A stretch of 59,420 nt of DNA, counting the filler, from Sphacelaria rigidula (lineage: Eukaryota), in assembly GCA_964200075.2 (NCBI GenBank). It is 3 parts of 3 records of this genome, joined end to end, with 100 filler letters (N's around TTAATTAATTAA, not from the genome) between each part and the next. Parts side by side here need not be neighbours in the genome. Positions count along the whole stretch, not along the records: positions 39,683 to 59,420 come from CAXNAA020000621.1; 2 more parts are not named here. One strand, written 5' to 3'. This document shows positions 43,601 through 58,600 of this stretch, piece after piece. Position 1 is the stretch's first letter; each line of letters starts with the position of its first letter. The notes below the pieces were generated by a model. The model was given only the letters and a program-made list of their open reading frames with translations, ran no database searches and was not told the origin of the DNA. The translations under genes were made by a program, and so were the position numbers.

Positions 43601-45723
43601 CGCAGCGTACGACGAAGTTCGGGATGGCCCTAGGGCTGGAGGGAATAAACATGTATATATATATATTATATATATACATGAATCTTATTTCATGGTCAAG
43701 TGCTGTAAATGTGTTGTGCCCCAGGCCATGGAGAAACCTTTTGGTGTATTTGGGGGGAACATCCCATACACAGGCTGTGCAGATCGATGTGTATCAGATC
43801 GCGTTCAGATGCCATAGTGGAAAATGACGTGGAGGTTGGTACCTTGCACTGCCTTCACCGAACTGTACTGTGCTGGCCTCGGAGGAATATGAATATACAC
43901 GAGAGTAAGCATCGCCAGGGTGAACGATGTAGTGGGGAAAGTTGAGCCAGATTTCTTCGAGCACGCAGCTAATTATATACCTGTCTTAGAGATGTGATGG
44001 AAAATCTTTGATAATCCGTGCTTCGGCATTTCGTTGACTTCACCGCGTCCTTTTGGGGGCGAAAAGTGAGGTGGTGCGATAAATGCACGAGGCTCAGTAG
44101 CTGTTGCTTTTGTTGTCTGCTCGGTACGCAGCATACCTTGACCGTGTCGTAAACCGTTGTGAAAATCGCCGCTGTAAATGTCCTCATTAATCCAAGCTAG
44201 CTCCCCTTTCCCCTCTCGAACACCTCCCTTCGTGGCTCCTTCGTAATGACCTTCCTGTAGCGCGTGGCACAGCCGACTGAGGGTGTGTGAGCTAGTGGAT
44301 CACTTTACTCGAGGATCGAGATTACACCATAGCTACAACAACAGTAGTGTACATGAGTACGGAGGAAGGAGACGAAATCACAGGTTAGTGCGTCATTTTT
44401 GCGTGCGGAACTAGGCCGCACGTGACGACGACGACCTTAAGCGTCGGTGGGAGATTGTACACAGTAGATGGCGATGGCAAGAGCTTTGACTTGCCTGTGT
44501 TGACGCATCGATATGGCATGAGTACTCGCAGCTCACGCGGTTACAAGGAAAATCCATGGCGGATTTGTGATGCACGTGGTGCGTTGACTGCTGAAATGTC
44601 GTGTCGATTCTCCGCACATGTCCTTCGTTGCTCTTTCACTGACTGCGATATATATCCACAATTCAGCAGTGCAGGCGTATCACTCACCCCCCGGTTTTAA
44701 CGCAGGCGATTATCACGCCAGGAGGATGCTGGATGGGCAGGGATCAGGCTGCCAACAATAGTCGAAGGGCCGCTTAACTCAGTAACACCCATGAAGCTCT
44801 CTGTCCGCCCGTCTGTGTGTCTCTTACGGCTATATATATATATATATATATATATACACCCAGGAGTACAGCACAGAATTAGGAACAACGATAAAACACT
44901 GCCCGGGTGTGCGGAGACACTGGGCATGTACTCATATCAGGTGCTATACTATTATACCACACAACAAAAGAACCGGGGGTCAAATGGTTGTCACCGTATG
45001 TATAGAGTTCTGGGGGCCTGTAGTTCTTCGCTACATGACAAATTGTTGTATCGTACGTATGCCTCCTGACTAGCACTTCACATGCTCTCCACTAACCATG
45101 ATAGAGCCAACGTCTGATAAGATGCGATCCCGTTGCTGCCGAGGTTGCTGCTGTGAGAGACACACCGCCACACCACGATACTACGTGGTGTCTGGCAAGA
45201 GGAAGACAAGACGAGGGAAGACAAACCGACACGTGAATCGCCGCATGCATGTTCAACTGTTTCACCTCCAACGGCCAAATGACTAGTTTTACTGATGTAG
45301 ATCTGTGGCTGATGGGGTTCGTTTTTGGATCTTTCCCGAGATTCCACAAAATTCAAAAAGAGACAAAGCTGTCGGATTTTTGTGTGGCAGAAAAAATATT
45401 CCTTTGATTTGGTGGTGCATGGTTATTTCCTCCCCAGAACCCCCCGGAAACCACTCGCACCCTTCCTACTATCAGAACTACTGCAGACAAGTTCTTCGCG
45501 CTTCACCTCTTTACACATTTTGCGTTGTTGAGGGAATAAACGAGCAGAACTACCAGGAACCGAACCAAGGTCATCGCGACTGACGGTGCGCCAGGAGCAA
45601 GCTATCGTGTGTGGCTTACGATCAAGCACGCCCGCTTCCGCTCCTTACCCACACATCACTCATATTCGGAATAATACATACTGAAACAGCAGGTCTTTTG
45701 CGCAGTGTGTGTGAGCACAAAAT

Positions 45724-46437
45724 ATGACCAACCACTTCTTCACTGGAAAAAGCTCGAAGAAATCTGAAACCCCGCGTGGCTCCGGCAACTACGCAGCGTT
45801 TGCGGCTACCTCCTCGGGTGCTCCCTCCGGATCAGGATCAGGATCGCTGCACAACCCTAACGGTTACGGGAAGACTTCGTCGCCGCAAGACACCGCACCT
45901 GAAAAGACCGGCACGGGACCTTCGCCAACAGCCATGATGCCCCCGAGCAACGGACAACACAAAGCGCCGACTTCGTCACAAAAGGCCCTCAGCCTTTTGG
46001 ATCAGGTGTGTGCACACCTCAGTGGGGTACAGCCAGTAAACAACGCCAGACATCTTTTCGAATGGTCACAACCAGTGTGCCACACAAAACCGCGCAATGC
46101 AGAGGTAGTACCGGCTTTTATTGGCGTAATGCTCGACACTGCAAAACTGGCACATGGACACCGCACTCGTAGTACGATCGCTTGCAAAGCCGCGCACATG
46201 TCGCCCGCACAGCACATTGCGAGGAGCGTCGAATATGACTTGATACATGTAGTCCTCAGAACAACTGCACCAACAGTTGCCGGGATAACCGTCGTTGAAA
46301 AATTATATCGTGATACTCTCGTCATGGAGGTGAAGATGAACTTTTGTTGCCCGCTTCGGGTGCCTTTCAGCTGTTGTGACGCTTCAGCAAGGGTATCTAC
46401 CACGAAAAGCCTACACGGTACATACATGGACACGTGA
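45724..46437 (+). CDS. Unidentified 237-aa ORF (Ser/Gly/Pro-rich N-terminal half); possibly TE-derived or a gene fragment
   Basis: ATG-initiated, longest clean ORF in piece 3, protein-like composition; no motif recognised. Confidence 0.3.
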   Translation: MTNHFFTGKSSKKSETPRGSGNYAAFAATSSGAPSGSGSGSLHNPNGYGKTSSPQDTAPEKTGTGPSPTAMMPPSNGQHKAPTSSQKALSLLDQVCAHLSGVQPVNNARHLFEWSQPVCHTKPRNAEVVPAFIGVMLDTAKLAHGHRTRSTIACKAAHMSPAQHIARSVEYDLIHVVLRTTAPTVAGITVVEKLYRDTLVMEVKMNFCCPLRVPFSCCDASARVSTTKSLHGTYMDT

Positions 46438-47579
46438 GTGAACCAGATGTTAGCCACCCCATTCCGGCTCATGACGGGTCTAGACAGCTTCCCTTCCATC
46501 AGGTTCGGACCAACTGTCTTTTTTTTGCAACCAAAATTTTGCAACTCAATAATGCTGTGGCAACGGCGACCACACGAAGGTCAACAAGATTTTCACGGCC
46601 GCGGTCCGTCTGTGGGTCATTTGCTGGCACATGATATGCATCTGTACGACGGGCGGAAGTCGTCGCACATAACGGTCTCTGGGCTATCGATCATGCTGAC
46701 CAATTTCTTCACGTGTCATCTCGGACATATCTATCCTGAGTTGGCTTCATTTAAATATATTTATATATATTGAGCACGGATTGACACCAGCACCCGTTGC
46801 CCTTTTCCCCCGGTCCGCTGCGCGGGTAAAAGTCATCTTTCTTCTCAACAACTCATGTTTTGTCCCTGAAAAATCAGGAGTGATCTTGATACAGGCAATT
46901 GTGCTTCCACCCAGCAGTGATGATGATACAGGCATCCCACCTCCTCACAGTCTCCACACTTGGCCCGTCAATCCGGGAATCGTCAGACATCCATTTCGGG
47001 CTGGGACGTCTTCATCCTCCCTCTCCGACCTCGGACGGAATCTTGGGTTACGGCCGGGGGGACCACCCCACCTTTCCTTCTACCGTAACCAGATGTGCAT
47101 GATTTCTCCAAATACTCAAAAGTTTCAAACCTCGGCACAACATACAGCAACCCATCAGCAGGGGAACGAACATGCGATCCAGTGTACACCCGGCTGTTTA
47201 AATCGCCATCTGTCACGCAGCAGCCTGTGGAGCGTAGTATTCTACAGTAAAGCAGTGAGATATATTCCAGCTTGGTCTTGAACAGCACAGGGCGAAACCA
47301 GGGGAGGGCGTAGTACGTGTGTACCTTAACCCGGCGATTACACTTGTCCACCTAAAAGAAGAATTAATGCCTGTTGACATCATGATACCCCACTCGGGTT
47401 TGATTTGCGTAGTAAATACGTGTCAGCGTCCATGTACTTGGTGGACAGGACACAGCGTCCTTGCACCAGCCTGTGTCATCATGGAACAAATTATTTTCAA
47501 GCCTTTCCGCTGTTGAACCTTGACGACCTTGTGTGATACTGTTCTTATCGCGCGCCAACAAAGAATCCGTTTCGTCCAA

Positions 47580-47581
<2 letters not shown>

Positions 47582-47615
<34 letters not shown>
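47582..47615. repeat. (TG)n microsatellite
   Basis: Seen directly. Confidence 0.9.
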
Positions 47616-47616
<1 letters not shown>

Positions 47617-49804
47617 CCTGGCCCCTGTCCCGTTTATTCACAGACGCATGCGGCTGATATCTGATACAAACTTTTTGAAACTTGGAAGAGCACAAAAATT
47701 GTCTCATACGGTCTCGTTCGACAACCCGTTTCATGTGCACAAGAACCCACCCCACCACTGTCACTTGCTGTACTGCATCTACATCATCGACAGTCTGCAC
47801 CAACAAAAGCACAAGCGCACAGATAACCTATGGCAGTAAACCGGGTAAGCGTCTAAGAACCGTAGATTATCATGAGCAGGATGTTCTCTCGTGCCTTTCC
47901 CATCTGGACAGGTCGATATGTCTGTGCACGAGGCGGGAGTAGCTTCGACGTGGTTGATTTATGCACTAAATATCTTGAGGATGAGCACACCCCTCGCGGC
48001 CCACGCTTGTGGTGATGTACTAGTGGACGACTGTGCCGTGCTGGGGTGCAAACGGCAGCCTGGGTTGGAGGATACGTTGGTGGAACAAAAAAACTGCCCG
48101 CAAACACACATCGCTACCCACGGTTGCCAAAACTCTCACATCGGTGCCTCCTCACGCCTCTTGCACAGACGGTACAACAGTAATACGGTGGTGACAGAAT
48201 TCCCACATGTATCTCGGTGTCGTGCTGTTGGACCAGATGAAAGTACCCAGGGGCAACTGAGTGCAGACATGCCCGTTTGCCTTTGATCGGCACAGTGTGC
48301 AGCGCCACACTGGCTGCATCGTACTGTTGAATGAGTCTTGGTGCCCCTGTGCCACTGAGTCGTTTCGTTCGATGCAATCTAAGAATCGGGGGGTCCAACA
48401 TTGTCTGCACAACTTTCTTGGATACGTTGAAAGCACTTCCCATCACGGGTTTGGTCTCACGTACAGCGTGAGACCTCGACTGAGTTATGCGATGCTCACT
48501 TCTGTACGCATTCGTGTACCGGTTGCTAATCAAGCGCTGGACCATGTTCCGGCACAAGTTCTGTACAGCGCTATATTCTTGCGACTGCTTTCCGCCGGAC
48601 TGTGCGCAAACCACCTCATTTTCTTTGGTAATCATGGCGCTGTGTTACACGAGGCACGTTTTGTCCCGCATGCGTGTTGTGAAACAGCCCGTCGAGCCCG
48701 CCAAACCGTCACGGTTTGGATACGCCCTCGGGATGAGGTACTGTACTTATTTTTCTGCTGAAAATTATGCCGACCAAAATGCAGTTGACAGTTGACCGAG
48801 CGTGTGGCTTACACTTGTATCGTTTGAGTACGCTATGTGGTGTTGGTTTTTCGGTGCCGAGAGCGGCACCGTAGAAAGTCCAACTGCTGTCCCTCTTGAA
48901 ACGAAGTATTTCTCCTGTCCCAAACCGATTCGTGTCAGAAGTTGTATCTAACCTACGGAACATACTTGGCCGTGTTGAGCACATCGAAAGGTGTAGGGTG
49001 GTGTTTTTTTGAGGTTCGTAGGTCCTGGTATTTGAATTCCATGTCTGTCGATTTACAGGTGTCTCGTCCCGACACCTCATGCAGACATTTTATTTGTCCG
49101 GTTGGTATTTCTCGATGTTTGCCGACACGAGAATGTTTTTGACGGCCCTGAAGCCCTGGTGTGTATGGAAATAATCTTGGAAAGACCGGACATGTATGTG
49201 TTGACGGAACATGAGCCGGCGTTATACAATTTTTACCAGGGCACTTCACCATCTCGATCATTTTCTGGGGCAGATGGCGTATTGCTGGGTACGTACAGTA
49301 CTCGTATGCTCATCACCACCGTACTCGACGTGGGTCATCACATCGTTATCTAGAATCGAGTATGCTACCTCCGCTCGGGGACGTGAAAGACAAGATATTC
49401 TTCACCGGTCAGTAATTGCGACATGATTACAGTCCCCACCCGGGAGACAAGTGTGTCGTGTTCACTAGTCGTATTTGCCTGCTGTCTGGTTCAAATATTT
49501 TACTGGCATTATTTGTTCCACAGCTTCAAAGATTTGGCACCGCCTCAAACTACTAAAATAGTTCTCTTTATCTGAGTATTATTCCACGGCTTCGAAGACT
49601 TGACATCGCCTCGAACGACTATTATAGCTTACCCCACCTCTCGAGGGTCTCGAACATCGTTAATCAAACTGGGCCGTGTCCCATCTCGCCAAGGTCGACT
49701 CTAGCGGGAGACGAACTGCATCTTGAGGAGTTGAGGCTGATTCAATCGCGGTCATTGGAGTGGGCGTGAATTCTCCGACGTGCCGTGAATTTGTACAATG
49801 GAGG

Positions 49805-50127
49805 TGGGGGTGGTGTGATCGTGGAATGTTGAGCCGTTATGCCGTGTTACTGACTGTCGCACCAAAGAAGTGTCATGACTTGTCGAGGAGATGCGGTTGC
49901 CTCGAAATGAAATCACCTCGTTTGCACGGCTCAAATGAGTGTACGGATGATATATCACTACCGCGCTGGCCGGATTCCGCACGAGTGGATGTGGGGTCGC
50001 GTGATCGTGGAATGTTGAGCCGTGTTGGCGTGTTACTGGCTGTCGCTCAAAGAAAATGTCAAGGCTTGCCAAGAAAATGCGGTTGCATCGGAATAAAATC
50101 ACCTCGTTTGCACGGCTCGCATGAACG
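49805..50127. repeat. Direct duplication, ~135-bp homologous blocks with 186-bp period
   Basis: gtgatcgtggaatgttgagccgt...aaatcacctcgtttgcacggctc occurs twice. Confidence 0.85.
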
Positions 50128-52216
50128 AACTGCATATACCGCTGTCCCGCCGGCCGGAACCAGCACGGCCAGGAGTCGAATAGCCCACAGGTCAGTGGGG
50201 AAAGCCCCGTGCCACACCCGGCGTGGTACTTGTTGTGCTTCAAAACTGACAGAACTCTAATTCCGAAGAGTAGAGGACTGAATGTATTGTAATTTCAAAC
50301 TACGCCGAATGTCTGGCACTTCCTTACGAAGCTGACTTGTTCCGAAAATCAGGGCTGTGAAGCTGACTTTGTTCACCACTTCTTTCTCCGTGACTCCACG
50401 AATCATTTTTGTCAATATCTCGAGGATTTTCCGCACGGTCTTGCCGTTGCCTGCGCAGTTCACTCACTACATGACTTCTGCTAACTGCGCTCCCCTGTAG
50501 CTGCGAGGATGCTGTGATGCACGGTGGTCATTGCTGTAAAAAGCGAAATGATCACCAAACATGTCTTCGATGCGCACTCTCTGAGATGCAGAGCCCAGAT
50601 TTCAAGTAATCTCAGGGAGATGACCAATATTCAATTGTTCAAATTCCCTGTTCGAGCGTATCTTTCCCGGGAAGACGATGATGAATTTGACACGCTTTGC
50701 GTTGGTAATCTCTAGTTGAGCACACAATCGTACGAGTCACATGTCTTGCGGGTTTGGGGGATTTATCATGTCATGTCGTGTTGAGTAGAAAAGTCCACCG
50801 ATTTAATGATCATTCAATCTACCGTTTTGTTCCATAGCAGCTCACGGATTTATGTCTGAAATTAATCAGTTCGGCGAATGATCTTGCTTGTCTCCTCCCG
50901 TCTTACCCACATCTTACTCACGGGGAAGTCACATCCAAAGCAAAAGAAATGAGACTAGTACAGTATATCGAATGAACAATCCACCCCCCCTACAAGATGG
51001 AACCTATCGGCTATTGTAATGAGCCTAGAAGTCGATACTGCACGCAGTACCCTTTTTGACAGCGTGTTCTGTTCGTATGGAATGAGTCCGTCTTGACGAC
51101 TGGCGCATGACGAGGACGTGGCTACGTTGTAAGCTTGAGGCAAAGTCTAATCTGGAATCTTGAACATGGAAATTACTGCCGATTTAACGAATGACCTACT
51201 TCCGCTGCCCGAGGGTCAACCTGCCGACGTTTGGACGGTCAACCCTTGGACGAATAGAGTGGGTCATCTAATGAATCGGCATGACTTTTCCCCGGAAAAG
51301 AATGTATGATCCAGATGGACTGTGTTCGCTGTTCGCAGTCCAAGGATGAACATGAAGGTGTCCAACCGGGAAGTTGATTCTCCTACGCTGTACGGTTTTT
51401 ATACTTTCTAACCTGATCACGAGACACTCTTGCGGAAAAGTAAATGCTGAGAGAAAATTCTCCTTCTTGGTCCCCACGGCAGCAAAATCGACGTCGGAAG
51501 CATTTGTTCGCCTTGACTCTTGTTGTACCCTTGAAATCGCGGTGCGGGTAGTTTATCTGTATTATGTACTTCGAGGTGAACTTTTTTCCAAGTAACAATT
51601 GATGATTCAGCCGTGACCTACCTCCGCGGTTCAAGGCTTAACGAACACACGAGGCGCGAAAGGTGTGGAGCGAAGAGCAACATTAGTAGCGAATAATTCA
51701 GGTGCAGTCGCCAACACTGAGGGGGATGAAGCCTTATCACGTACTCTGACAATCCGTTTTGCATGATGGTGGTACCTTCGTGTGTCTCCACGGTCTTCGA
51801 TTGATAATGTAAGCCTGTGCGCTCGCGCAAGACTTCGCTCACCTGAACCTGATGTCATGTTGCAAAGGCGGATCATGCACTATACTTTTTTCCCGTCGTC
51901 GTCGATCGTTGGTTTTTGTTCGGTCTACCTCCCTCGTGCCCGTCCAACCTTACTGTTTTATGCGCTTCCCTACAGCGACTGTTTCTTTTGTCTTGTTTGC
52001 CATGTGACCGGTGACTGTATCCCTGAGAGATCATTGCATAAGCAACATTCGTGGAATCGATCTATCAAGTGACAGTGCGGGGTGACAAAAAAAGGAACAC
52101 GGATATATCACGGACGATTTTCATTCCGCTGCCTGAAAAGTTTCTGCGCCCAGTTGGCCCCTAGACTGCGAGATTACTTTTTCTGGATGCATGCGTATTT
52201 TTTTCACTTGAAGTTG

Positions 52217-52282
52217 ATGCCGATTCAACAGAAGACTAACCTCGCGGCTGAGGGTCAAGAGCCACCTCTCATCACCCTTGAG
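52217..52282 (+). CDS. Bactofilin exon 1 (MPIQQKTNLAAEGQEPPLITLE), start tentative
   Basis: In frame with exon 2. It is preceded by a T-rich acceptor-like site ending at 52213 (alternative acceptor 52231). The donor GTTCAT is weak. Confidence 0.6.
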
Positions 52283-55200
52283 GTTCATGACACTGTTCCC
52301 GCGTAGGGTCTGTCTGTTTTTCGAGGGAAGAGGTCAGCCCACGATACGCGCCAGCTTCATTGTAGGAGCTAGGTGCACGGTGTTTTCCCGTACTTTGGAA
52401 ATCGAATGTACGATCGCAGAAGCGTCTTGGTAAACGTGAGGTGCGCGCTTCGCTCCGCATGACATCACATCGTTCGCGCAGAAACCCGAGTCCATGGTTG
52501 CGGAAACGCTGAAGATGAAGGGTGAACTTGAGTTCACCCGGCTATTGCGAGTGGATGGGCGGTTCGAGGGAGACCTCATCACTGACAACGGAAGCCTCGT
52601 CGTTGGACCCAAGGGAGAGGTTGTTGGAGACCTCAAAAATATGAAGGTGCGTGTCCCTGATGATGGCAAAGTGGGTGAGATCTTCCTGTCAACGTGTACC
52701 GTCAACCCCTCAGACCATGATGAAGACAGGTGAGCCATCTTCAAGCAAGAACACTTTTTGCCAATCCAACCAGTGAATCACTTTCTCTCTGGAAAAATGG
52801 ACATGAAGAACTTCAGAAGTGTGTGCGCTCGCTCGCTCGCCGCCTCCGGTCGGGGCGTAAGGGCGTGGACGGGGAGTACGGAAGGCTACGTTGGTACTTG
52901 ACGCAGGGTGACTGCTGGTGGGATAGCGGATGTTAACGACAAGTACCGAATTTTCATTGTGATGTATGATGGGGAATTCAGCATGCGTTTTATAGTTTTC
53001 GTGTGGGAGAATTGTTTCATCATATCGGTTACCGGGTTTGTCACATGACAGTTTTTCACGGTTTGAGGGTGATGGCGATTGGATGGATGACGATCCCAGT
53101 GCAAGCCATCTTGCCGATCCCGCTTCGTATCAAACATCGCAGCCACGCACAGTGCGGTGATGAGAATGATCGATTCCATGATTACGCACCAAAATAAGCC
53201 TTGCTAGTCGTGTGGTTGGTTTTTCTTCTCGTATGTAAAACGCTGATTCTGTTTGGCCTCCCGGATGTGTCGACTGTCGTATTATGATGACGTCTCTTAC
53301 TCGTGAAGTTGGGGGGAGGGGAGACGGGGATTGTAGCCCACGTGATCTTCTCTGGAGGTCAAACAGTTTCCCAACCAGGTGTGGTGAAACTGTTCTAGTG
53401 GTTTCTGACGTACTTTCTGACGCATTCCCCGCTAAGCCCTTTAGTACAGATCTCATCCTACCCTCAAACTGCCTTATTGACTCATCGCCAGAGAATCTCG
53501 AAGCGCTGCCAATTTGCCACCGGAGCTAGGCGCGTTTGTTAATGGTATCCCGTATGTTCCCGTGCTTCCGTCATGTTGACTTCGGGTTGGGTGAATTAAC
53601 AGGAGGTTTATGTGGAAGGTATCGTGCGCGGGAATGTGTTCGCCAGCGAAGTCAAGGTGAGGGGTCAACCTCTAGGTTGAAACAGTGAAGAGGAACAAAT
53701 GATTCAAAGCGAAACAGATAGCGGGGCGGGGGTTGTACTCATGATCATGCATATAGTCACAAGACCGTGGACCTCGCATCCCTACAAAGCCGGGACGGAG
53801 CACGCCGGGTTGTCGCCGGACCAGGCTCGCCAATACCAAGCGCGAAGCGCCGTGGTGTTATCGGCGAGACGCATGAAGGGTGAGCTGAATCCTGCTAAGA
53901 TTATTCGGTCCGAAGCCTGCATTATCTTGCATTCGAATGGCAGCCTCCAATGAGTTGCTTTATTTTCTGTTGCCCGTTTGTGGAGAGTTAGCAACCAAGG
54001 CGACGTGGCGTGTCCCAATATTCCTGTCCCCTTGCTTTTTGTGAAAGACTCGAAAATATGCAGTCGAATCGAATTGGTCGTTACGAGGCCATATCATACG
54101 TCCACGGCTTTCATGCTCTCAGGTGGTTTCAAGTCCATTTTATGAGTAGTTGCGTGTGACGGGCAGAGTCAACAACAGAAGCTCGGCTTTTTTTCGCGAA
54201 CCGAGCGGCTGAATAAACGAAGGGGCACGCAACCTCTATGTTGCTGACAACCATGCCAAATACCTCCGTTTTACAAAATTATGCAAAACCCAAATGGTCC
54301 ATTCGCAAATACGTATTCAGCCCTGTGGCATTGATCACGAACTGAGCACAGGGATTCAAACTCTGCCGACATCACCCCGTCTTTGGCATGAAGCCTATTT
54401 TTTGTCGTCGAAACTTGCGCATCTCATTCTGTGGCGGGTTCCATTGGCGGAGTTGCGTGTTGGAGTGGACAATCAAATTGCCAACGCGCTCGTGCACAGT
54501 AAAGGCGGTGCGAAAACTACATGTGGTTCAAATCTGCTTCGCATCCTGTGTGCTGAAAGTCGCTTTTCCCACTTCTAGGATAGCGCGCATCTTGAGAGTT
54601 GCTGTGCTCTCCACGCCCCATCACCATCTATACATTGAATACGGCAAGTTGACGAGACAGGACATGCGCGATTCGGCATCTGATTCAGTACTACAGTTGT
54701 CACTTACGACATATGCGTTCTGGGCGACTGTTGATCCAGCATGCTGTGCCAAACACCGACGTCATCAAGACGATGGAGGCGGCTACACTGGTACAGTCTG
54801 TACTGTCCGTGCTGAACTGTCCATTGAACATATGTGAAGGAGTTTCACTTCACGAATTTCGCGTAGTCTTGTCGATACTGGGCTTGCAAATTCGCCCGAA
54901 CCCCAACATGGCATGACGAACTGAATAAGTTCAGCCGCACGGACTCCTTCGAGTTTTTTTTTTCGATAGGACACGGCTTGAGCAAAGCAGAAGGTTTTTC
55001 ATGATGAGATCCGATTACTTACTCTTGATCGATATGATAGTTGATCGGCAGCCACCCCCACTCCCCGTCTGTTGTGCCCCGTGGTCAATCTGTCTCAGGT
55101 GAAGAACAATGGTATGCTCTTCGGTGACATCCAGTGCCTGCAACTCACTCTCGACCCGACGGCCTCTGTGAAGGTGTGGATTCTCGCGACAGCGTGGTGT

Positions 55201-55696
55201 GAAAATGATCCGGCCGGCTTGGGCTGATTCCTGAAAGAAAATGGAAATTAGTACCATTAAATCTTGACGTGAAAATGGACGCATTTTGCGTGCTGAGATT
55301 TGATGGGGTGTGGATATTTCTTGTGAAGTCATGAGTCAATTCTAGTAATGAATCAGAGGCGAATCTCGCGTGTCCCGTCTCGTCAACTTGCCGTATTCCA
55401 TGTATTGATGGTGATAGGGCGTGGCGGACACAGCAACCCTCAAGGAGCGCGCCATCCAGGAGAAGGCGGACGCCAAGAAGGCCGCTGCCGCCGCGGCCGC
55501 CGCCTCAAACGCAGCATCGTCGAACGGTGCAGTAACGAAACCTCCCTCGGCGGCACCCGTGGCATCCGCGGCGGGAGGAATGGCACCGACGTACGCATCA
55601 GGTTCGGCCGTGATGACGGCTGGCGAGCGAAGCATCGCCCCAGTTACTAAGTCACGCCCGACGAGGATCGAAACCTCGATGCCACCGCCGTCTTGA
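52217..55696 (+). CDS. Bactofilin (polymer-forming cytoskeletal, CcmA/DUF583-type) domain protein, 5 exons, ~212 aa
   Basis: Exons 52217-52282, 52482-52646, 53603-53656, 55099-55173 and 55418-55696, all joined by phase-0 GT-AG introns. Spliced core: SMVAETLKMKGELEFTR/LLRVDGRFEGDLITDNG/SLVVGPKGEVVGDLKNMK/EVYVEGIVRGNVFASE/VKVKNNGMLFGDIQCLQ/LTLDPTASVKGVA, i.e. six ~17-aa G-[DEN]-[LIV] windings. An Ala/Pro/Ser-rich tail follows. The start codon and first exon are less certain. Confidence 0.88.
52482..52646 (+). CDS. Bactofilin exon 2 (windings 1-3)
   Basis: Acceptor cgcag, 165 nt, KMKGELEFTRLLRVDGRFEGDL, donor GTGCGT. Confidence 0.92.
53603..53656 (+). CDS. Bactofilin exon 3 (EVYVEGIVRGNVFASEVK)
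   Basis: Acceptor aacag, donor GTGAGG, 54 nt; supplies the expected fourth winding; not in the ORF track. Confidence 0.88.
54572..54693 (-). repeat. Inverted copy of 55343-55465 (bactofilin last-intron 3' end plus start of exon 5)
   Basis: Core 54611-54693 versus 55343-55424 differs at about 9 of 83 positions by manual alignment; weaker similarity extends ~40 nt into the exon. Confidence 0.9.
55099..55173 (+). CDS. Bactofilin exon 4 (VKNNGMLFGDIQCLQLTLDPTASVK)
   Basis: Acceptor tctcag, donor GTGTGG, 75 nt; windings 5-6; not in the ORF track. Confidence 0.88.
55418..55696 (+). CDS. Bactofilin exon 5 (end of domain plus low-complexity tail)
   Basis: Acceptor gatag, GVADTATLKERAIQEKADAKKAAAAAAAAS...PPPS*, GC-rich coding-like composition. 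Confidence 0.8.
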   Translation, partial: GVADTATLKERAIQEKADAKKAAAAAAAASNAASSNGAVTKPPSAAPVASAAGGMAPTYASGSAVMTAGERSIAPVTKSRPTRIETSMPPPS

Positions 55697-58600
55697 GCAT
55701 CTGGCTGTTGATGCTGCTGTGCGATAAAACTGCGCAAAAAACTTTGTAGAGATTCGTTTTCTTTCGTTTCGTTTGAATTGCTTAATGTGTTGGTGCCAGG
55801 GAGATTGGAAACGGGTGAGGGAGAGGGCAGGTTTACTGTTGCCACTGCTGGGGTGTAATGTGGTACTCGTATTTTACATGTACGTTTTGGTCGCTCGTGT
55901 TGCATCGTATCCCCCTTACCTCCGGGTGCATCGACGTTTCTGGGAACAGTTTTGCCCACTCATGAAAAGTATTTGGTGATGATTCCCTTTCTTTCGATTG
56001 ACATTTCGCAATCGGCCTATTATTTTGTGGCTTGTATCAACTATATATTGGAGTTCAACACCGAAACAAACCGTGTTCCCTTGACTCGTGCGGGATTGTC
56101 GACCCAACTCTATCGTTGCCGTCATTTTACATTCTCGTTCTATGTGTGATCCTCGTTAGCTTGCAGCCAGTGGTGCAACGTAATGTGTTGGCCAGGCTCC
56201 TTACATATTCATCTACATTTTCGGCTGTTTTAATTGGTGCCCCGAGATTGGTCCGCATTCCCTAAAGGAGTGGGTTTCGCATGGGCTCATGTGCTCATTG
56301 GATCTGTGTTTGGGGCAGATGCATGCACATTCCTGGAGAATTGAGGTCACGTTCATTGTAGCGTGGGGTGTTCTTTTTCCTCGGCCTGTCTCCGCCGGGT
56401 GTCGGCGGGAAAAACGACAGTCGTGAGTGTATTTTGTCAGAGGTGAATCAATAGTCAACCAGTACAGATATTTTATCCACGTGCTGATTGCATGTCGAAC
56501 GTGGCAAATTTGGACGGGTGTGATGGGGAGTGGTGGTGCGATCTTTGATGTTTTACTGTTCTCTTGTCGGGTGATGGTGTTCTGTTTCTCCGGTGGCTTC
56601 ACTCGGTTCTTGTCGTCCCCCATTCCGAGTCTTTTCCCGAGTTTTCATGCGATTAGGTGCACCATGGAATTAAAGTGTGCGGAAATGGAGGTTGAAGGTG
56701 GTATCGTCGCTGCAGCCCCATGTGTTGAACTTGACTGCAGGCGTCGTGGAATGTACTCGGTAACGGAGAATCAATGAATAACGTACCCCGACTTGGACGT
56801 GTGCGCTGCCCTCACCCTTGTTGCGTTCTCCTATACGTCGACGTTTTCTTGAATCTGTTTACCTCTCTGCTGCGCATCCTTTACTTCAAATGTCCCTCAG
56901 GCTTGATATTGAGTTCCATAGGGTTCCTGTATTCGGGTAGTTCCGTACTTTTCTCGATCCCATACCTATTGCGGCTGAGTGATTGCACTGCGTGGTGCTG
57001 TTTGCATTTCTCTTGTCTCTTCTGGGCGAAATCTAACCTGAGTGCAGTGACGGATTCGCTTTTCTTTAGCAGTTGGGTTGATTTCGAAAGTGAAATAGTT
57101 TACTTTTGAGGAGATATTGGTGGAGCTAAGTATGATTTTTTTGTTTAATTCTGGTAATGGTTTCTCCCTTCAAGTGCCCCCCCCCCCCCCAGTCCCGACG
57201 TTTCTGTGATGTTTCATATGTGTTGTGTTGGGCTACCATTCCCCGGTATTACTGACCAGAAATCAGTCGTGAAGAGGTTGACCAATGTGTGTACCTGAAG
57301 TCCCTGTCTCGCTGGCGAAACGAGTGAAGTTCACACTATTGAAATGTACTCTATGGGAAGGTGGCGACCAGTTTATGCGGGCCTATAGTATGCCTTGCTG
57401 CCTTCTCCTGGAACCCATATCGTTATACGAGGAGCGCTGGATTTGCAGAGCGAGGAAAAGAAGCAACGGCGCTCGTGACGTGATGAACGGAAAAACATTG
57501 TTCGATTCCTCATGTCTTGACAGTTTTTGTTGGGGTCGGATGTTGGTGATTGTCGTGTATCACTGGAGACTCGTGAACAGAAAGATGAATGGTGCATGAT
57601 AGTATCGTTGTTGTTGTCCCTTGTGCTGGCTAGTACTATAACCGCTTCGATAGGAAGGCGTAGGGTCGGAGACGGTGTGTGCAGACAGGGAGGGTATAAC
57701 ATTTTGTACATCATTGTATATGCCCAATATTTTTTACTCGACCCTTGTTTTTCATCCAAATTGGTACCATTATGGTGCTTTTGTTTTCGGGACTAGATAC
57801 ATATTTATATATATTTGTGGAGCGCAGTCGCGGGACATTTCGCGAATAATTGAGGTCAACTTCACACGTGACACGTTGCCTGGGTAAGACTTTGTCCTCG
57901 TACTTGATTGATATCGAGTGTTGTGGAGGAAACGTTGAATGATAATGAAAGCATGATACGAACACAGGAGGTACCCACCATGCCGAACACACCGAAAGTG
58001 TGTGCCTTGCCCTCCCATGAGCGCACCTGAGCCTGGAGGTGGCATGATGAAAACGTGAAACTGCTGTACGGCAATCCGATACAGGACCCGGGGTTCTGGA
58101 GAGAGCGGACGAGATGTGATACATGACCAAAGTTTCCTTCGGCTCCCCTCCAGGTGAAACGATTGATGTCAGGGGTGAGCTTGACATTCATTTACGCAAG
58201 GGACACACGCCCTGGCTTTTATTTCGTGTCCCCACAAGGCAGATCGAGTACGATCCGACATCACGGTACTTGAACCGTCTCGATGATCAATCCGTTGGCT
58301 GTCGACTTACTTCAAGTAACCCGATGGAACTCGAAGGTTTCCTATGCACCGATCCGCTGTACTGTACGGTATGAAGCCCGACATATGGCGGTGTGAATAA
58401 AGCGGTATACCTAAGGTGAGGCGTCCGGAATTTGCGTCCACAACTCAAACCCGGCATATGACGGTGGCCCTCTTGAACCGGGTCGAGCCCTGTACAGTAC
58501 GGTAACCACCTGTCTTAGACCTTGTGTCAGATTGATCAATCAATCCGCTGCTAAGGCTAACTCTCACGGGAGCGTTTAAAATTTTAGTTTGCAATAATTC

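What the first reader, a model, noticed from the sequence alone, without database searches (positions are those of the whole stretch)
52217..55696. Spliced eukaryotic bactofilin: a bacterial-type cytoskeletal filament gene in an algal-looking genome
Seen: five exons with canonical splice sites assemble into a complete six-winding beta-helix pattern (KMKGELEF / LRVDGRFEGDL / LVVGPKGEVVGDL / VYVEGIVRGNV / VKNNGMLFGDI / LTLDPTASVKG), followed by an Ala/Pro/Ser-rich tail. Two of the exons are invisible in the ORF track. Known: bactofilins (CcmA/BacA, DUF583) polymerise without nucleotide into apolar filaments in bacteria; eukaryotic homologs are rare and mainly reported from stramenopiles such as oomycetes. 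Inference: the spliceosomal introns exclude bacterial contamination, so this is a domesticated nuclear gene that may encode an uncharacterised filament system in this alga. No short hydrophobic N-terminal membrane-targeting peptide like those of many bacterial bactofilins is visible.
Basis: partly seen in the sequence, partly recalled or inferred. Interest (0 to 1): 0.85.

Follow-up and report, generated by a model that had tools for sequence, protein, structure and literature searches.

The report
Spliced, expressed bactofilin gene in brown alga
This is a real, intron-containing and transcribed brown-algal gene for a bactofilin, a bacterial-type filament protein; the same gene in Ectocarpus was already noted in print in 2019, and its nearest bacterial relatives are chlamydial.

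Summary
The gene is real. The true first coding exon is 45724-46005, 6.5 kb upstream. The five exons translate exactly to a deposited 284-aa protein named 'unnamed protein product [Sphacelaria rigidula]'.

That protein scores 67.8 bits on Pfam Bactofilin, where the cut-off is 27.9. Its model has a beta-helix at pLDDT about 98 that superposes on Thermus bactofilin with TM 0.86.

It is not new. It is the ortholog of Ectocarpus D7G0L1, which Deng et al. 2019 listed among stramenopile bactofilins.

This work adds four things:
- A corrected gene model.
- A true N-terminus with a hydrophobic doublet followed by lysines.
- Three brown-algal paralog clades.
- A tree in which 40 eukaryote-type rows form one clade (98/96) inside a clade shared with Chlamydiota bactofilins (99/98).

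Polymerisation and membrane binding are inferred, not shown.

The parts
45724..46005 (+). Coding exon 1 (aa 1-94). It encodes a disordered N-terminal tail that starts MTNHFFTGKSSKK. RNA contigs begin about 45497-45527, so the 5'UTR lies upstream.
   Evidence: tblastn of P0001 is 100% over aa 1-94. ATG at 45724 and donor GT at 46006. The joint 46005|52482 stands in 3 of 3 RNA-like runs. pLDDT is about 50.
46006..52481 (+). Intron 1 (6476 nt, phase 0).
   Evidence: the skip of 6476 has GT..AG ends, and intron depth is 0-10 against exon depth of 400-1200. The joint 47844|52482 is seen in X1 only. Loose ends lie at 52198 and 52247.
52482..52646 (+). Coding exon 2 (aa 95-149). It holds the KPESMVAETL pre-domain motif and about the first half of the beta-helix.
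   Evidence: Pfam Bactofilin 35.4 bits, profile positions 2-48 of 98. Joints.
52647..53602 (+). Intron 2 (956 nt, phase 0). Its position is kept in other brown algae.
   Evidence: joint in 3 of 3 RNA-like runs. ORF fragments from other contigs break right after ..KNM[KQ] (P0021, P0044, P0062, P0066; P0006, P0015, P0018).
53603..53656 (+). Coding exon 3 (aa 150-167, EVYVEGIVRGNVFASEVK), 18 residues, about one winding.
53657..55098 (+). Intron 3 (1442 nt, phase 0). It holds a high-copy repeat at about 53723-53960 and one arm of an inverted repeat (54578-54675). This intron is absent in two Ectocarpales-like fragments.
   Evidence: joint, depth spike, loose ends; inverted repeat; in P0084 and P0105 exons 3 and 4 are contiguous.
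55099..55173 (+). Coding exon 4 (aa 168-192), the last windings, ending ..LTLDPTASVK.
55174..55417 (+). Intron 4 (244 nt, phase 0). Its last 58 nt, with the first 40 nt of exon 5, form the second arm of the inverted repeat (55360-55457).
55418..55696 (+). Coding exon 5 (aa 193-284 plus TGA). It encodes a predicted helix at aa 198-224 (TLKERAIQEKADAKK..) and then an Ala/Pro/Ser-rich disordered tail. The 3'UTR runs on past 56100.
   Evidence: tblastn 100%. Helix pLDDT 87-93, tail 53-75. RNA contigs cover 55416-56100 and continue beyond the stretch laid (table 8).

Best explanation
This is a nuclear brown-algal gene. The identical protein is deposited under the name Sphacelaria rigidula. It has five coding exons over 10 kb and encodes a 284-aa bactofilin. 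The protein has a 94-aa disordered N-terminal tail, a bactofilin beta-helix of about 100 residues (aa 95-193), a short helix, and an Ala/Pro/Ser-rich tail.

Shown: the gene is spliced and transcribed, it belongs to Pfam Bactofilin, it is predicted to adopt the bactofilin fold, and it is the ortholog of Ectocarpus D7G0L1.

More weakly inferred: the N-terminal peptide (an FF or IF doublet followed by Lys/Arg) holds the filament on a membrane, as the bacterial MFSKKKK-type peptide does. The conserved islands of the tails (TPRGSGN, PEKTG, DTATLKERA) may recruit partners.

The family probably entered stramenopiles once, from a chlamydia-like bacterium, and then split into at least three paralogs in brown algae.
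For: Gene model. The five exons translate exactly to P0001. All four introns are GT..AG and are joined in contigs of 3 of 3 RNA-like runs and 0 of 1 DNA run. Exon depth is 400-1200 against 0-10 in introns.

Family. PF04519 at 67.8 bits, E 1e-18, profile 2-95 of 98. PDB sequence hits to TtBac 6ria (E 2.2e-5) and BacA 2n3d.

Fold. pLDDT is about 98 over aa 90-195. Foldseek gives 6rib_A TM 0.86 and rmsd 2.0 over 102 columns, and 2n3d TM 0.84. The next hit has E 0.33.

Interface. TtBac F105, whose F105R change impairs polymerisation, aligns with V191. By my reading of the alignment, that column is V/I/L/F in nearly all of the 25 aligned relatives.

Orthology. UniRef100_D7G0L1 sits in the same 90% cluster as P0009. 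A stramenopile relative, PiBac, forms filaments in vitro (passages read).

N-terminus. Five of 5 clade-A proteins carry a hydrophobic doublet within 8 residues followed by K/R.

Origin. The top 150 of 3212 phmmer hits are eukaryote-type or 'MFKRY..' proteins. An alignment of 27 such proteins finds 80 prokaryotic loci, 47 of them labelled Chlamydiota. In the careful tree the 40 eukaryote-type rows are one clade (98/96) and eukaryote plus chlamydial rows are one clade (99/98).
Against: No experiment or computation here shows that this protein polymerises. [quoted passage not shown]

The N-terminal motif is only loosely like MFSKKKK. The Phe residues are at positions 5-6, not 2, and a 94-aa linker separates the motif from the domain. 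My regular expression for it was loose and was written after seeing the sequences.

The 'RNA' label of runs X1, X2 and X8 is the tool's guess. I infer RNA from the spliced contigs.

Only about half of the 40 'eukaryote' tree rows carry a eukaryote name. I assigned the rest by clade and by their low-complexity tails. The tree has 99 columns. The outgroup has 25 rows, part of which were chosen by a motif scan. The position of the eukaryote clade inside the chlamydial group is unresolved (55/82).
Confidence: 0.72

Rival explanations
1. The protein keeps the bactofilin fold but no longer polymerises. It would act as a soluble beta-helical adaptor, with its long tails doing the work.
For: Polymerisation is untested for any brown-algal bactofilin. 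A confidently predicted helix (aa 198-224) follows directly on the last winding and could in principle cap the tail-to-tail face. The tails make up about 65% of the protein.
Against: The domain covers the whole Pfam profile (2-95 of 98). The model superposes on a filament subunit at rmsd 2.0. The position aligned to the polymerisation-critical F105 stays hydrophobic. The domain is 88% identical between orders of brown algae while the tails diverge.
Confidence: 0.17
2. The filament works inside an organelle (plastid, periplastidial space or mitochondrion), as a legacy of its bacterial origin, rather than in the cytosol.
For: The nearest prokaryotic relatives are chlamydial. I recall, without testing it here, that many chlamydia-like genes in algae serve plastids. 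Gene models of paralog B (P0022, P0055) begin with a hydrophobic stretch followed by ..AVEG|F, which by eye resembles a stramenopile plastid presequence.
Against: This gene's own N-terminus (MTNHFFTGKSSKKSETPRGSG) is polar and basic, with no hydrophobic signal-peptide core (read by eye; no targeting predictor was available). The same holds for its orthologs.
Confidence: 0.07
3. The hit is bacterial contamination, a recent unexpressed insertion or a pseudogene.
For: Bactofilins are overwhelmingly bacterial.
Against: There are four spliceosomal introns with spliced transcripts and an intact frame. Orthologs occur in at least 8 brown-algal records with conserved intron 2. DNA depth is even with the flanks, about 28-30.
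Confidence: 0.01

Closest known systems
Ectocarpus siliculosus D7G0L1 (CBJ33040.1), named by Deng et al. 2019 as a putative stramenopile bactofilin
   Same: It is the direct ortholog. It lies in the same 90%-identity cluster as P0009, which is 92% identical to this gene's exon 2. It has the same N-terminal MAIFS..KRTTPRGSGN tail and the same domain.
   Different: The 210-aa D7G0L1 model runs on after ..TASIR into non-homologous sequence. It lacks the last exon (GV.DTATLKERA helix and tail) that RNA supports here. In Ectocarpales-like fragments exons 3 and 4 are one exon.
PiBac, Phytophthora infestans PITG_07992 (D0N980)
   Same: It is a stramenopile bactofilin that forms filaments when made recombinantly. 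An oomycete relative (Thraustotheca, P0188) falls in the same eukaryote clade as this gene.
   Different: I did not hold PiBac's sequence. The oomycete relative has an N-terminal Pro-rich basic motif (MRQAPPKPKR) rather than the hydrophobic doublet, and it belongs to another subclade.
Thermus thermophilus TtBac (6RIA/6RIB) and Caulobacter BacA (2N3D)
   Same: Same fold (TM 0.86 and 0.84), same Pfam family, and disordered flanking tails.
   Different: Only 22-28% identity. The bacterial tails are short and start with the membrane-targeting peptide at residue 1-8. Here the N-tail is 94 aa and sits on its own exon.
Chlamydial bactofilin BacA_CT (C. trachomatis CT276) family
   Same: This is the closest prokaryotic group by similarity and by tree. 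Both share the pre-domain motif PE[ST]x[IVL]G and F.RLLR[IV]DG.FEG. BacA_CT is membrane-associated and forms rings.
   Different: The chlamydial proteins start MF[KR][KR] in 38 of 44 rows, against 4 of 81 eukaryote-type rows. They have no introns, and identity to this protein is about 33-44%.

Membership tests
Bactofilin (Pfam PF04519 / DUF583) | Match to the family profile above the curated cut-off, over the whole domain | tested here: met
   67.8 bits against a cut-off of 27.9, E 1e-18, profile 2-95 of 98. Three of 3 other orthologs tested score 65.5-67.
Bactofilin (Pfam PF04519 / DUF583) | Right-handed beta-helix of about six windings, as in TtBac and BacA | tested here: met
   This is a prediction only. 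The AF2 domain has pLDDT about 98. Foldseek gives 6rib_A TM 0.86 with rmsd 2.0 and 2n3d TM 0.84, with the next fold at E 0.33. Handedness was not inspected.
Bactofilin (Pfam PF04519 / DUF583) | Disordered, often Pro-rich tails on both sides of the domain | tested here: met
   pLDDT is 47-55 for aa 1-80 and 53-63 for aa 240-280. The tails are Ala/Pro/Ser/Gly-rich.
Bactofilin (Pfam PF04519 / DUF583) | Nucleotide-independent polymerisation into non-polar filaments | not testable with these tools
   This needs recombinant protein and EM. The only support is that the position aligned with TtBac F105 is hydrophobic (V191).
Bactofilin (Pfam PF04519 / DUF583) | N-terminal membrane-targeting peptide (consensus MFSKKKK; a hydrophobic doublet then a basic residue) | tested here: inconclusive
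   The N-terminus MTNHFFTGKSSKK has an FF doublet and K9/K12/K13, and orthologs have MAIFSN..K..KR. This fits Deng's loose wording but not the strict consensus of PMC12448750.
Stramenopile (eukaryotic) bactofilin clade | Groups with named stramenopile proteins to the exclusion of prokaryotic ones | tested here: met
   The 40 eukaryote-type rows form one clade, UFBoot/SH-aLRT 98/96, in 96% of 200 bootstrap trees. Named members are brown algae, Chrysoparadoxa, pelagophytes and an oomycete.

The most novel reading that the evidence does not exclude
Stramenopile bactofilins stem from one ancient transfer from a chlamydia-like (PVC) bacterium. In brown algae they have become a three-paralog eukaryotic filament system whose members are steered by different N-terminal addresses. 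This gene would keep a degenerate version of the bacterial membrane-targeting peptide. Paralog C, most pelagophyte-like proteins and the oomycete relative would carry a new PPPPPR-K/R motif. Paralog B may carry an organelle presequence. That would be a bacterial cytoskeleton rewired for eukaryotic membranes.
Probability: 0.4. Interest if true: 0.6.

Novelty: already known. Interest (0 to 1): 0.33.

Why it matters
No eukaryotic bactofilin has a known cellular function. The two papers that discuss them say so.

This gene is a clean, RNA-supported full-length model of the brown-algal ortholog. By contrast, the Ectocarpus model named by Deng et al. (D7G0L1) lacks the last exon. A corrected construct could therefore be worth trying.

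The chlamydial affinity and the distinct N-terminal motif classes give testable leads on where the family came from and where the filaments sit. My six searches of the held library found neither point in print. I could not see the supplementary trees of Deng et al., which may already show the chlamydial link.

The existence of the gene itself is not news.

Tried and rejected
- Complex prediction of four copies of the domain (aa 90-200 with alignment A2) gave 'no answer' (scores 0.10 and 0.01, mark 0.42). The controls were not run. This is no evidence either way.
- The look-up of sequencing runs listed no holder on record as RNA. The kinds of X1-X4 are guesses and X8 is unknown. I treat X1, X2 and X8 as RNA-derived only because they hold the spliced forms.
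No joint starts from it, its frame ends in TAG at 52304-52306, and the only contigs over it (52218-52508, depth about 9) are at intron level.
- The genome search 'own' holds no genome for this window. Paralogs in this same genome therefore could not be counted.
- The search for related loci with the broad alignment A1 failed for lack of a conserved stretch. A closer alignment, A3, worked.
- Pfam on the short exons alone (25 aa, and the 92-aa tail) found nothing, as expected.
- ORFs of 110 aa or more around the gene (38000-59420) were only looked over by eye and not searched. I saw nothing there worth following.
- The search of earlier findings returned nothing for this genome.
- The Cavalier-Smith paper listed has no 'bactofilin' in the held part of its text.
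Full report
OBSERVATION

I read 51900-56200 and listed stop-to-stop frames. The translation of 52440-52646 alone passes Pfam Bactofilin (35.4 bits against a cut-off of 27.9, profile 2-48 of 98).

A word-indexed search with exon 2 found 18 proteins among 163 candidates. The best is a 284-aa NCBI protein, 100% identical, named 'unnamed protein product [Sphacelaria rigidula]' (P0001). The others are from Ectocarpus spp., Scytosiphon, Pylaiella and Ascophyllum, at 86-95% identity over exon 2.

A script that joins the five stretches gives exactly P0001, with all introns in phase 0. The coding region is therefore 45724-55696, with introns of 6476, 956, 1442 and 244 nt.

TRANSCRIPTS

No run is on record as RNA. 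I laid three runs guessed or unknown in kind (X1, X2, X8) and one evident DNA run (X5) on 45300-56100.

- Each of the four junctions (46005|52482, 52646|53603, 53656|55099, 55173|55418, all GT..AG) stands in one contig of each of X1, X2 and X8, and in none of X5.
- Word depth is 400-1200 on exons and 0-10 in introns in those three runs. It is flat at about 28-30 in X5 outside repeats.
That place lies in intron 1 beside a high-copy repeat (52198-52247).
- One further joint, 47844|52482, occurs in X1 only. In frame, it has a stop upstream and a Met five codons before the joint, so it would give an N-terminally truncated protein.

Contigs cannot give expression levels or strand.

FAMILY AND FOLD

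P0001 scores 67.8 bits (E 1e-18) on PF04519 over profile positions 2-95 of 98. Three orthologs score 65.5-67. Among PDB sequences, only Thermus bactofilin (6ria, E 2.2e-5) and Caulobacter BacA (2n3d, E 5.5e-4) match.

I predicted the structure with AlphaFold2, using an alignment of 136 relatives. These were 133 of the 150 listed hits, after dropping 17 fragments and read-through ORFs, plus P0001, P0009 and P0011. The model shows:

- pLDDT about 98 for aa 90-195, which is all beta;
- a helix at aa 198-224 (pLDDT 87-93);
- disordered tails.

Foldseek against the PDB puts 6rib_A first (TM 0.86 on the target, rmsd 2.0, 102 columns) and 2n3d second (TM 0.84). The next fold has E 0.33.

TtBac F105, whose F105R change impairs polymerisation, aligns with V191. 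By my reading of the alignment, that column is hydrophobic in nearly all of the 25 aligned relatives.

WHAT IS KNOWN

I read passages, not whole texts, of four papers.

- Deng et al. 2019 (bioRxiv 10.1101/617639) found bactofilins in stramenopiles and ascomycetes. They showed that P. infestans PiBac forms filaments. They tried D7G0L1 of Ectocarpus, and only D0N980 was successfully expressed. They proposed horizontal transfer, and they described the membrane-targeting motif as a hydrophobic doublet often followed by a positive residue.
- PMC12448750 gives the consensus MFSKKKK.
- PMC11459167 repeats that eukaryotic bactofilins cluster with bacterial ones.
- The Chlamydia BacA_CT preprint (10.1101/2020.10.19.346502) is covered under 'Relatives and origin'.

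An exact look-up shows UniRef100_D7G0L1 in the same 90% cluster as P0009. This window's gene is therefore the ortholog of a protein already named in print. The D7G0L1 model (210 aa) runs past ..TASIR into unrelated sequence and lacks the last exon.

Searches for bactofilin with 'brown alga', 'Ectocarpus' or 'oomycete' returned only Deng et al. or an unrelated paper.

N-TERMINUS

The true N-terminus is MTNHFFTGKSSKKSETPRGSGN. Orthologs read MAIF[SP]..K..K[RK]TTPRGS. All 5 clade-A rows have a hydrophobic doublet within the first 8 residues followed by K/R. My pattern was loose and was written after seeing the sequences.

Among the eukaryote-type rows of the first tree:

- 30 of 81 instead carry a Pro-rich basic motif (such as PPPPPRSKK);
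- 4 of 81 start MF.

Of the chlamydial-type rows, 38 of 44 start MF.

That this peptide binds membranes is only an inference.

RELATIVES AND ORIGIN

phmmer of P0001 against 1.84 billion representatives gave 3212 hits at E <= 1e-3, 213 at <= 1e-10 and 3 at <= 1e-30.

Look-ups name the nearest hits as follows:

- Chrysoparadoxa;
- further brown-algal proteins, forming paralog clades B (P0022, P0025, P0026, P0055) and C (P0185-P0187);
- pelagophytes;
- a Heterococcus transcript;
- the oomycete Thraustotheca.

A block of about 44 unnamed proteins starting MFKRYKNPFEKE was traced with an alignment of 27 of them (A3). The scan matched 118 stretches, 91 of which encode a relative, and the best 80 loci were kept. 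Their labels are 47 Chlamydiota, 10 Verrucomicrobiota, 10 Spirochaetota, 2 Acidobacteriota, 1 Thermoplasmatota and 10 with no phylum told.

I then built a careful IQ-TREE tree (LG+C20+F+G4 by PMSF; 92 rows, 99 columns). The rows were 40 eukaryote-type, 15 Chlamydiota-labelled, 12 labelled otherwise that matched strongly, and 25 others. Results:

- The 40 eukaryote-type rows form one clade (98/96).
- They sit in a 66-row clade with all Chlamydiota-labelled rows and 11 of the 12 'other-label' rows (99/98).
- The Verrucomicrobia-labelled rows mix with Rhabdochlamydiaceae rows, so they are probably chlamydial bins.
- The sister group of the eukaryote clade within that set is unresolved (55/82).

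Caveats: there are few columns, part of the outgroup was picked by a motif scan, about half of the eukaryote rows are unnamed, and the root is not inferred. The direction bacterium to eukaryote is the parsimonious reading, not a tested one.

The Chlamydia BacA_CT preprint (passages) describes membrane-associated rings and never mentions eukaryotes (0 occurrences of 'eukaryot').

MECHANISM

Shown: a spliced, transcribed gene for a protein of the bactofilin family, with the bactofilin fold by prediction.

Inferred from the family: nucleotide-independent end-to-end stacking into non-polar filaments.

More weakly inferred: membrane attachment through the N-terminal peptide, and partner binding through conserved tail islands (TPRGSGN, PEKTG, DTATLKERA).

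I put about 0.7 on polymerisation and about 0.35 on membrane binding by the N-terminal peptide.

VERDICT

The finding is real and mostly well read, with a wrong first exon. The kind of gene, and this very ortholog group, are already in the literature, and the protein is already deposited. The added value is the corrected model, the N-terminal motif classes, the paralog structure and the chlamydial affinity.

Noticed in passing
window 54578-54675 and 55360-55457: A 98-nt inverted repeat, 87% complementary, pairs the middle of intron 3 with the last 58 nt of intron 4 plus the first 40 nt of exon 5, looping out exon 4. The 911-nt stretch folds with one long closing stem (MFE -387.7 kcal/mol, z -10.6 against 20 shuffles). 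The intron copy still reads GVESTATLKMRAILE on the minus strand. No exon-4-skipping joint was listed.
   Followed up: partly
window 53657-55098 (intron 3): Intron 3 seems lineage-specific. In two ORF fragments from other brown-algal contigs (P0084, and P0105, which is Pylaiella-like) exons 3 and 4 are one uninterrupted exon flanked by acceptor- and donor-like ends. The positions of introns 2 and 4 are kept.
   Followed up: partly
window 47600-47844: A possible alternative 5' exon is joined to 52482 in run X1 only. In frame it would start at a Met five codons before the joint and remove the whole 94-aa N-terminal tail.
   Followed up: partly
window 52198-52247 and 53723-53960: These are high-copy repeats inside introns 1 and 3. 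In the bins that hold them, DNA-run word depth is about 92,000 and about 1,060,000 against about 30 elsewhere. Many loose ends and odd joints lie there. The repeats were not classified.
   Followed up: no
P0022, P0055 (brown-algal paralog B; not in the window): These gene models begin with a hydrophobic stretch (..CCCWALLLLAS..) followed by ..AVEG then F. By eye this resembles a signal peptide plus the Phe of a stramenopile plastid presequence. Other clade-B models lack it. No predictor was run.
   Followed up: no
P0205 (= UniRef100_D7G0L1, Ectocarpus siliculosus): The published Ectocarpus model ends ..LTLDPTASIR and then 23 unrelated residues. It appears to read into the intron and to miss the final exon. 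This might bear on the failed expression reported by Deng et al., which is speculation.
   Followed up: partly
L001-L068 (loci from prokaryotic genomes): The BacA_CT preprint states that Chlamydia-related bacteria lack a homolog. However, loci labelled Waddlia, Parachlamydiales, Rhabdochlamydiaceae and many Chlamydiales MAGs encode one. Several MAGs labelled Verrucomicrobia, Acidobacteria or Thermoplasmatales carry chlamydia-type copies and may be mis-binned.
   Followed up: partly
P0010, P0013, P0204 (Ectocarpus spp. orthologs): Their models contain the exon-5 start twice in direct order (GVTDTLTV.. and, about 90 residues later, GVTDTATLKERALLE). A duplication of this segment may therefore recur in the lineage: direct in Ectocarpus, inverted in this window.
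   Followed up: no
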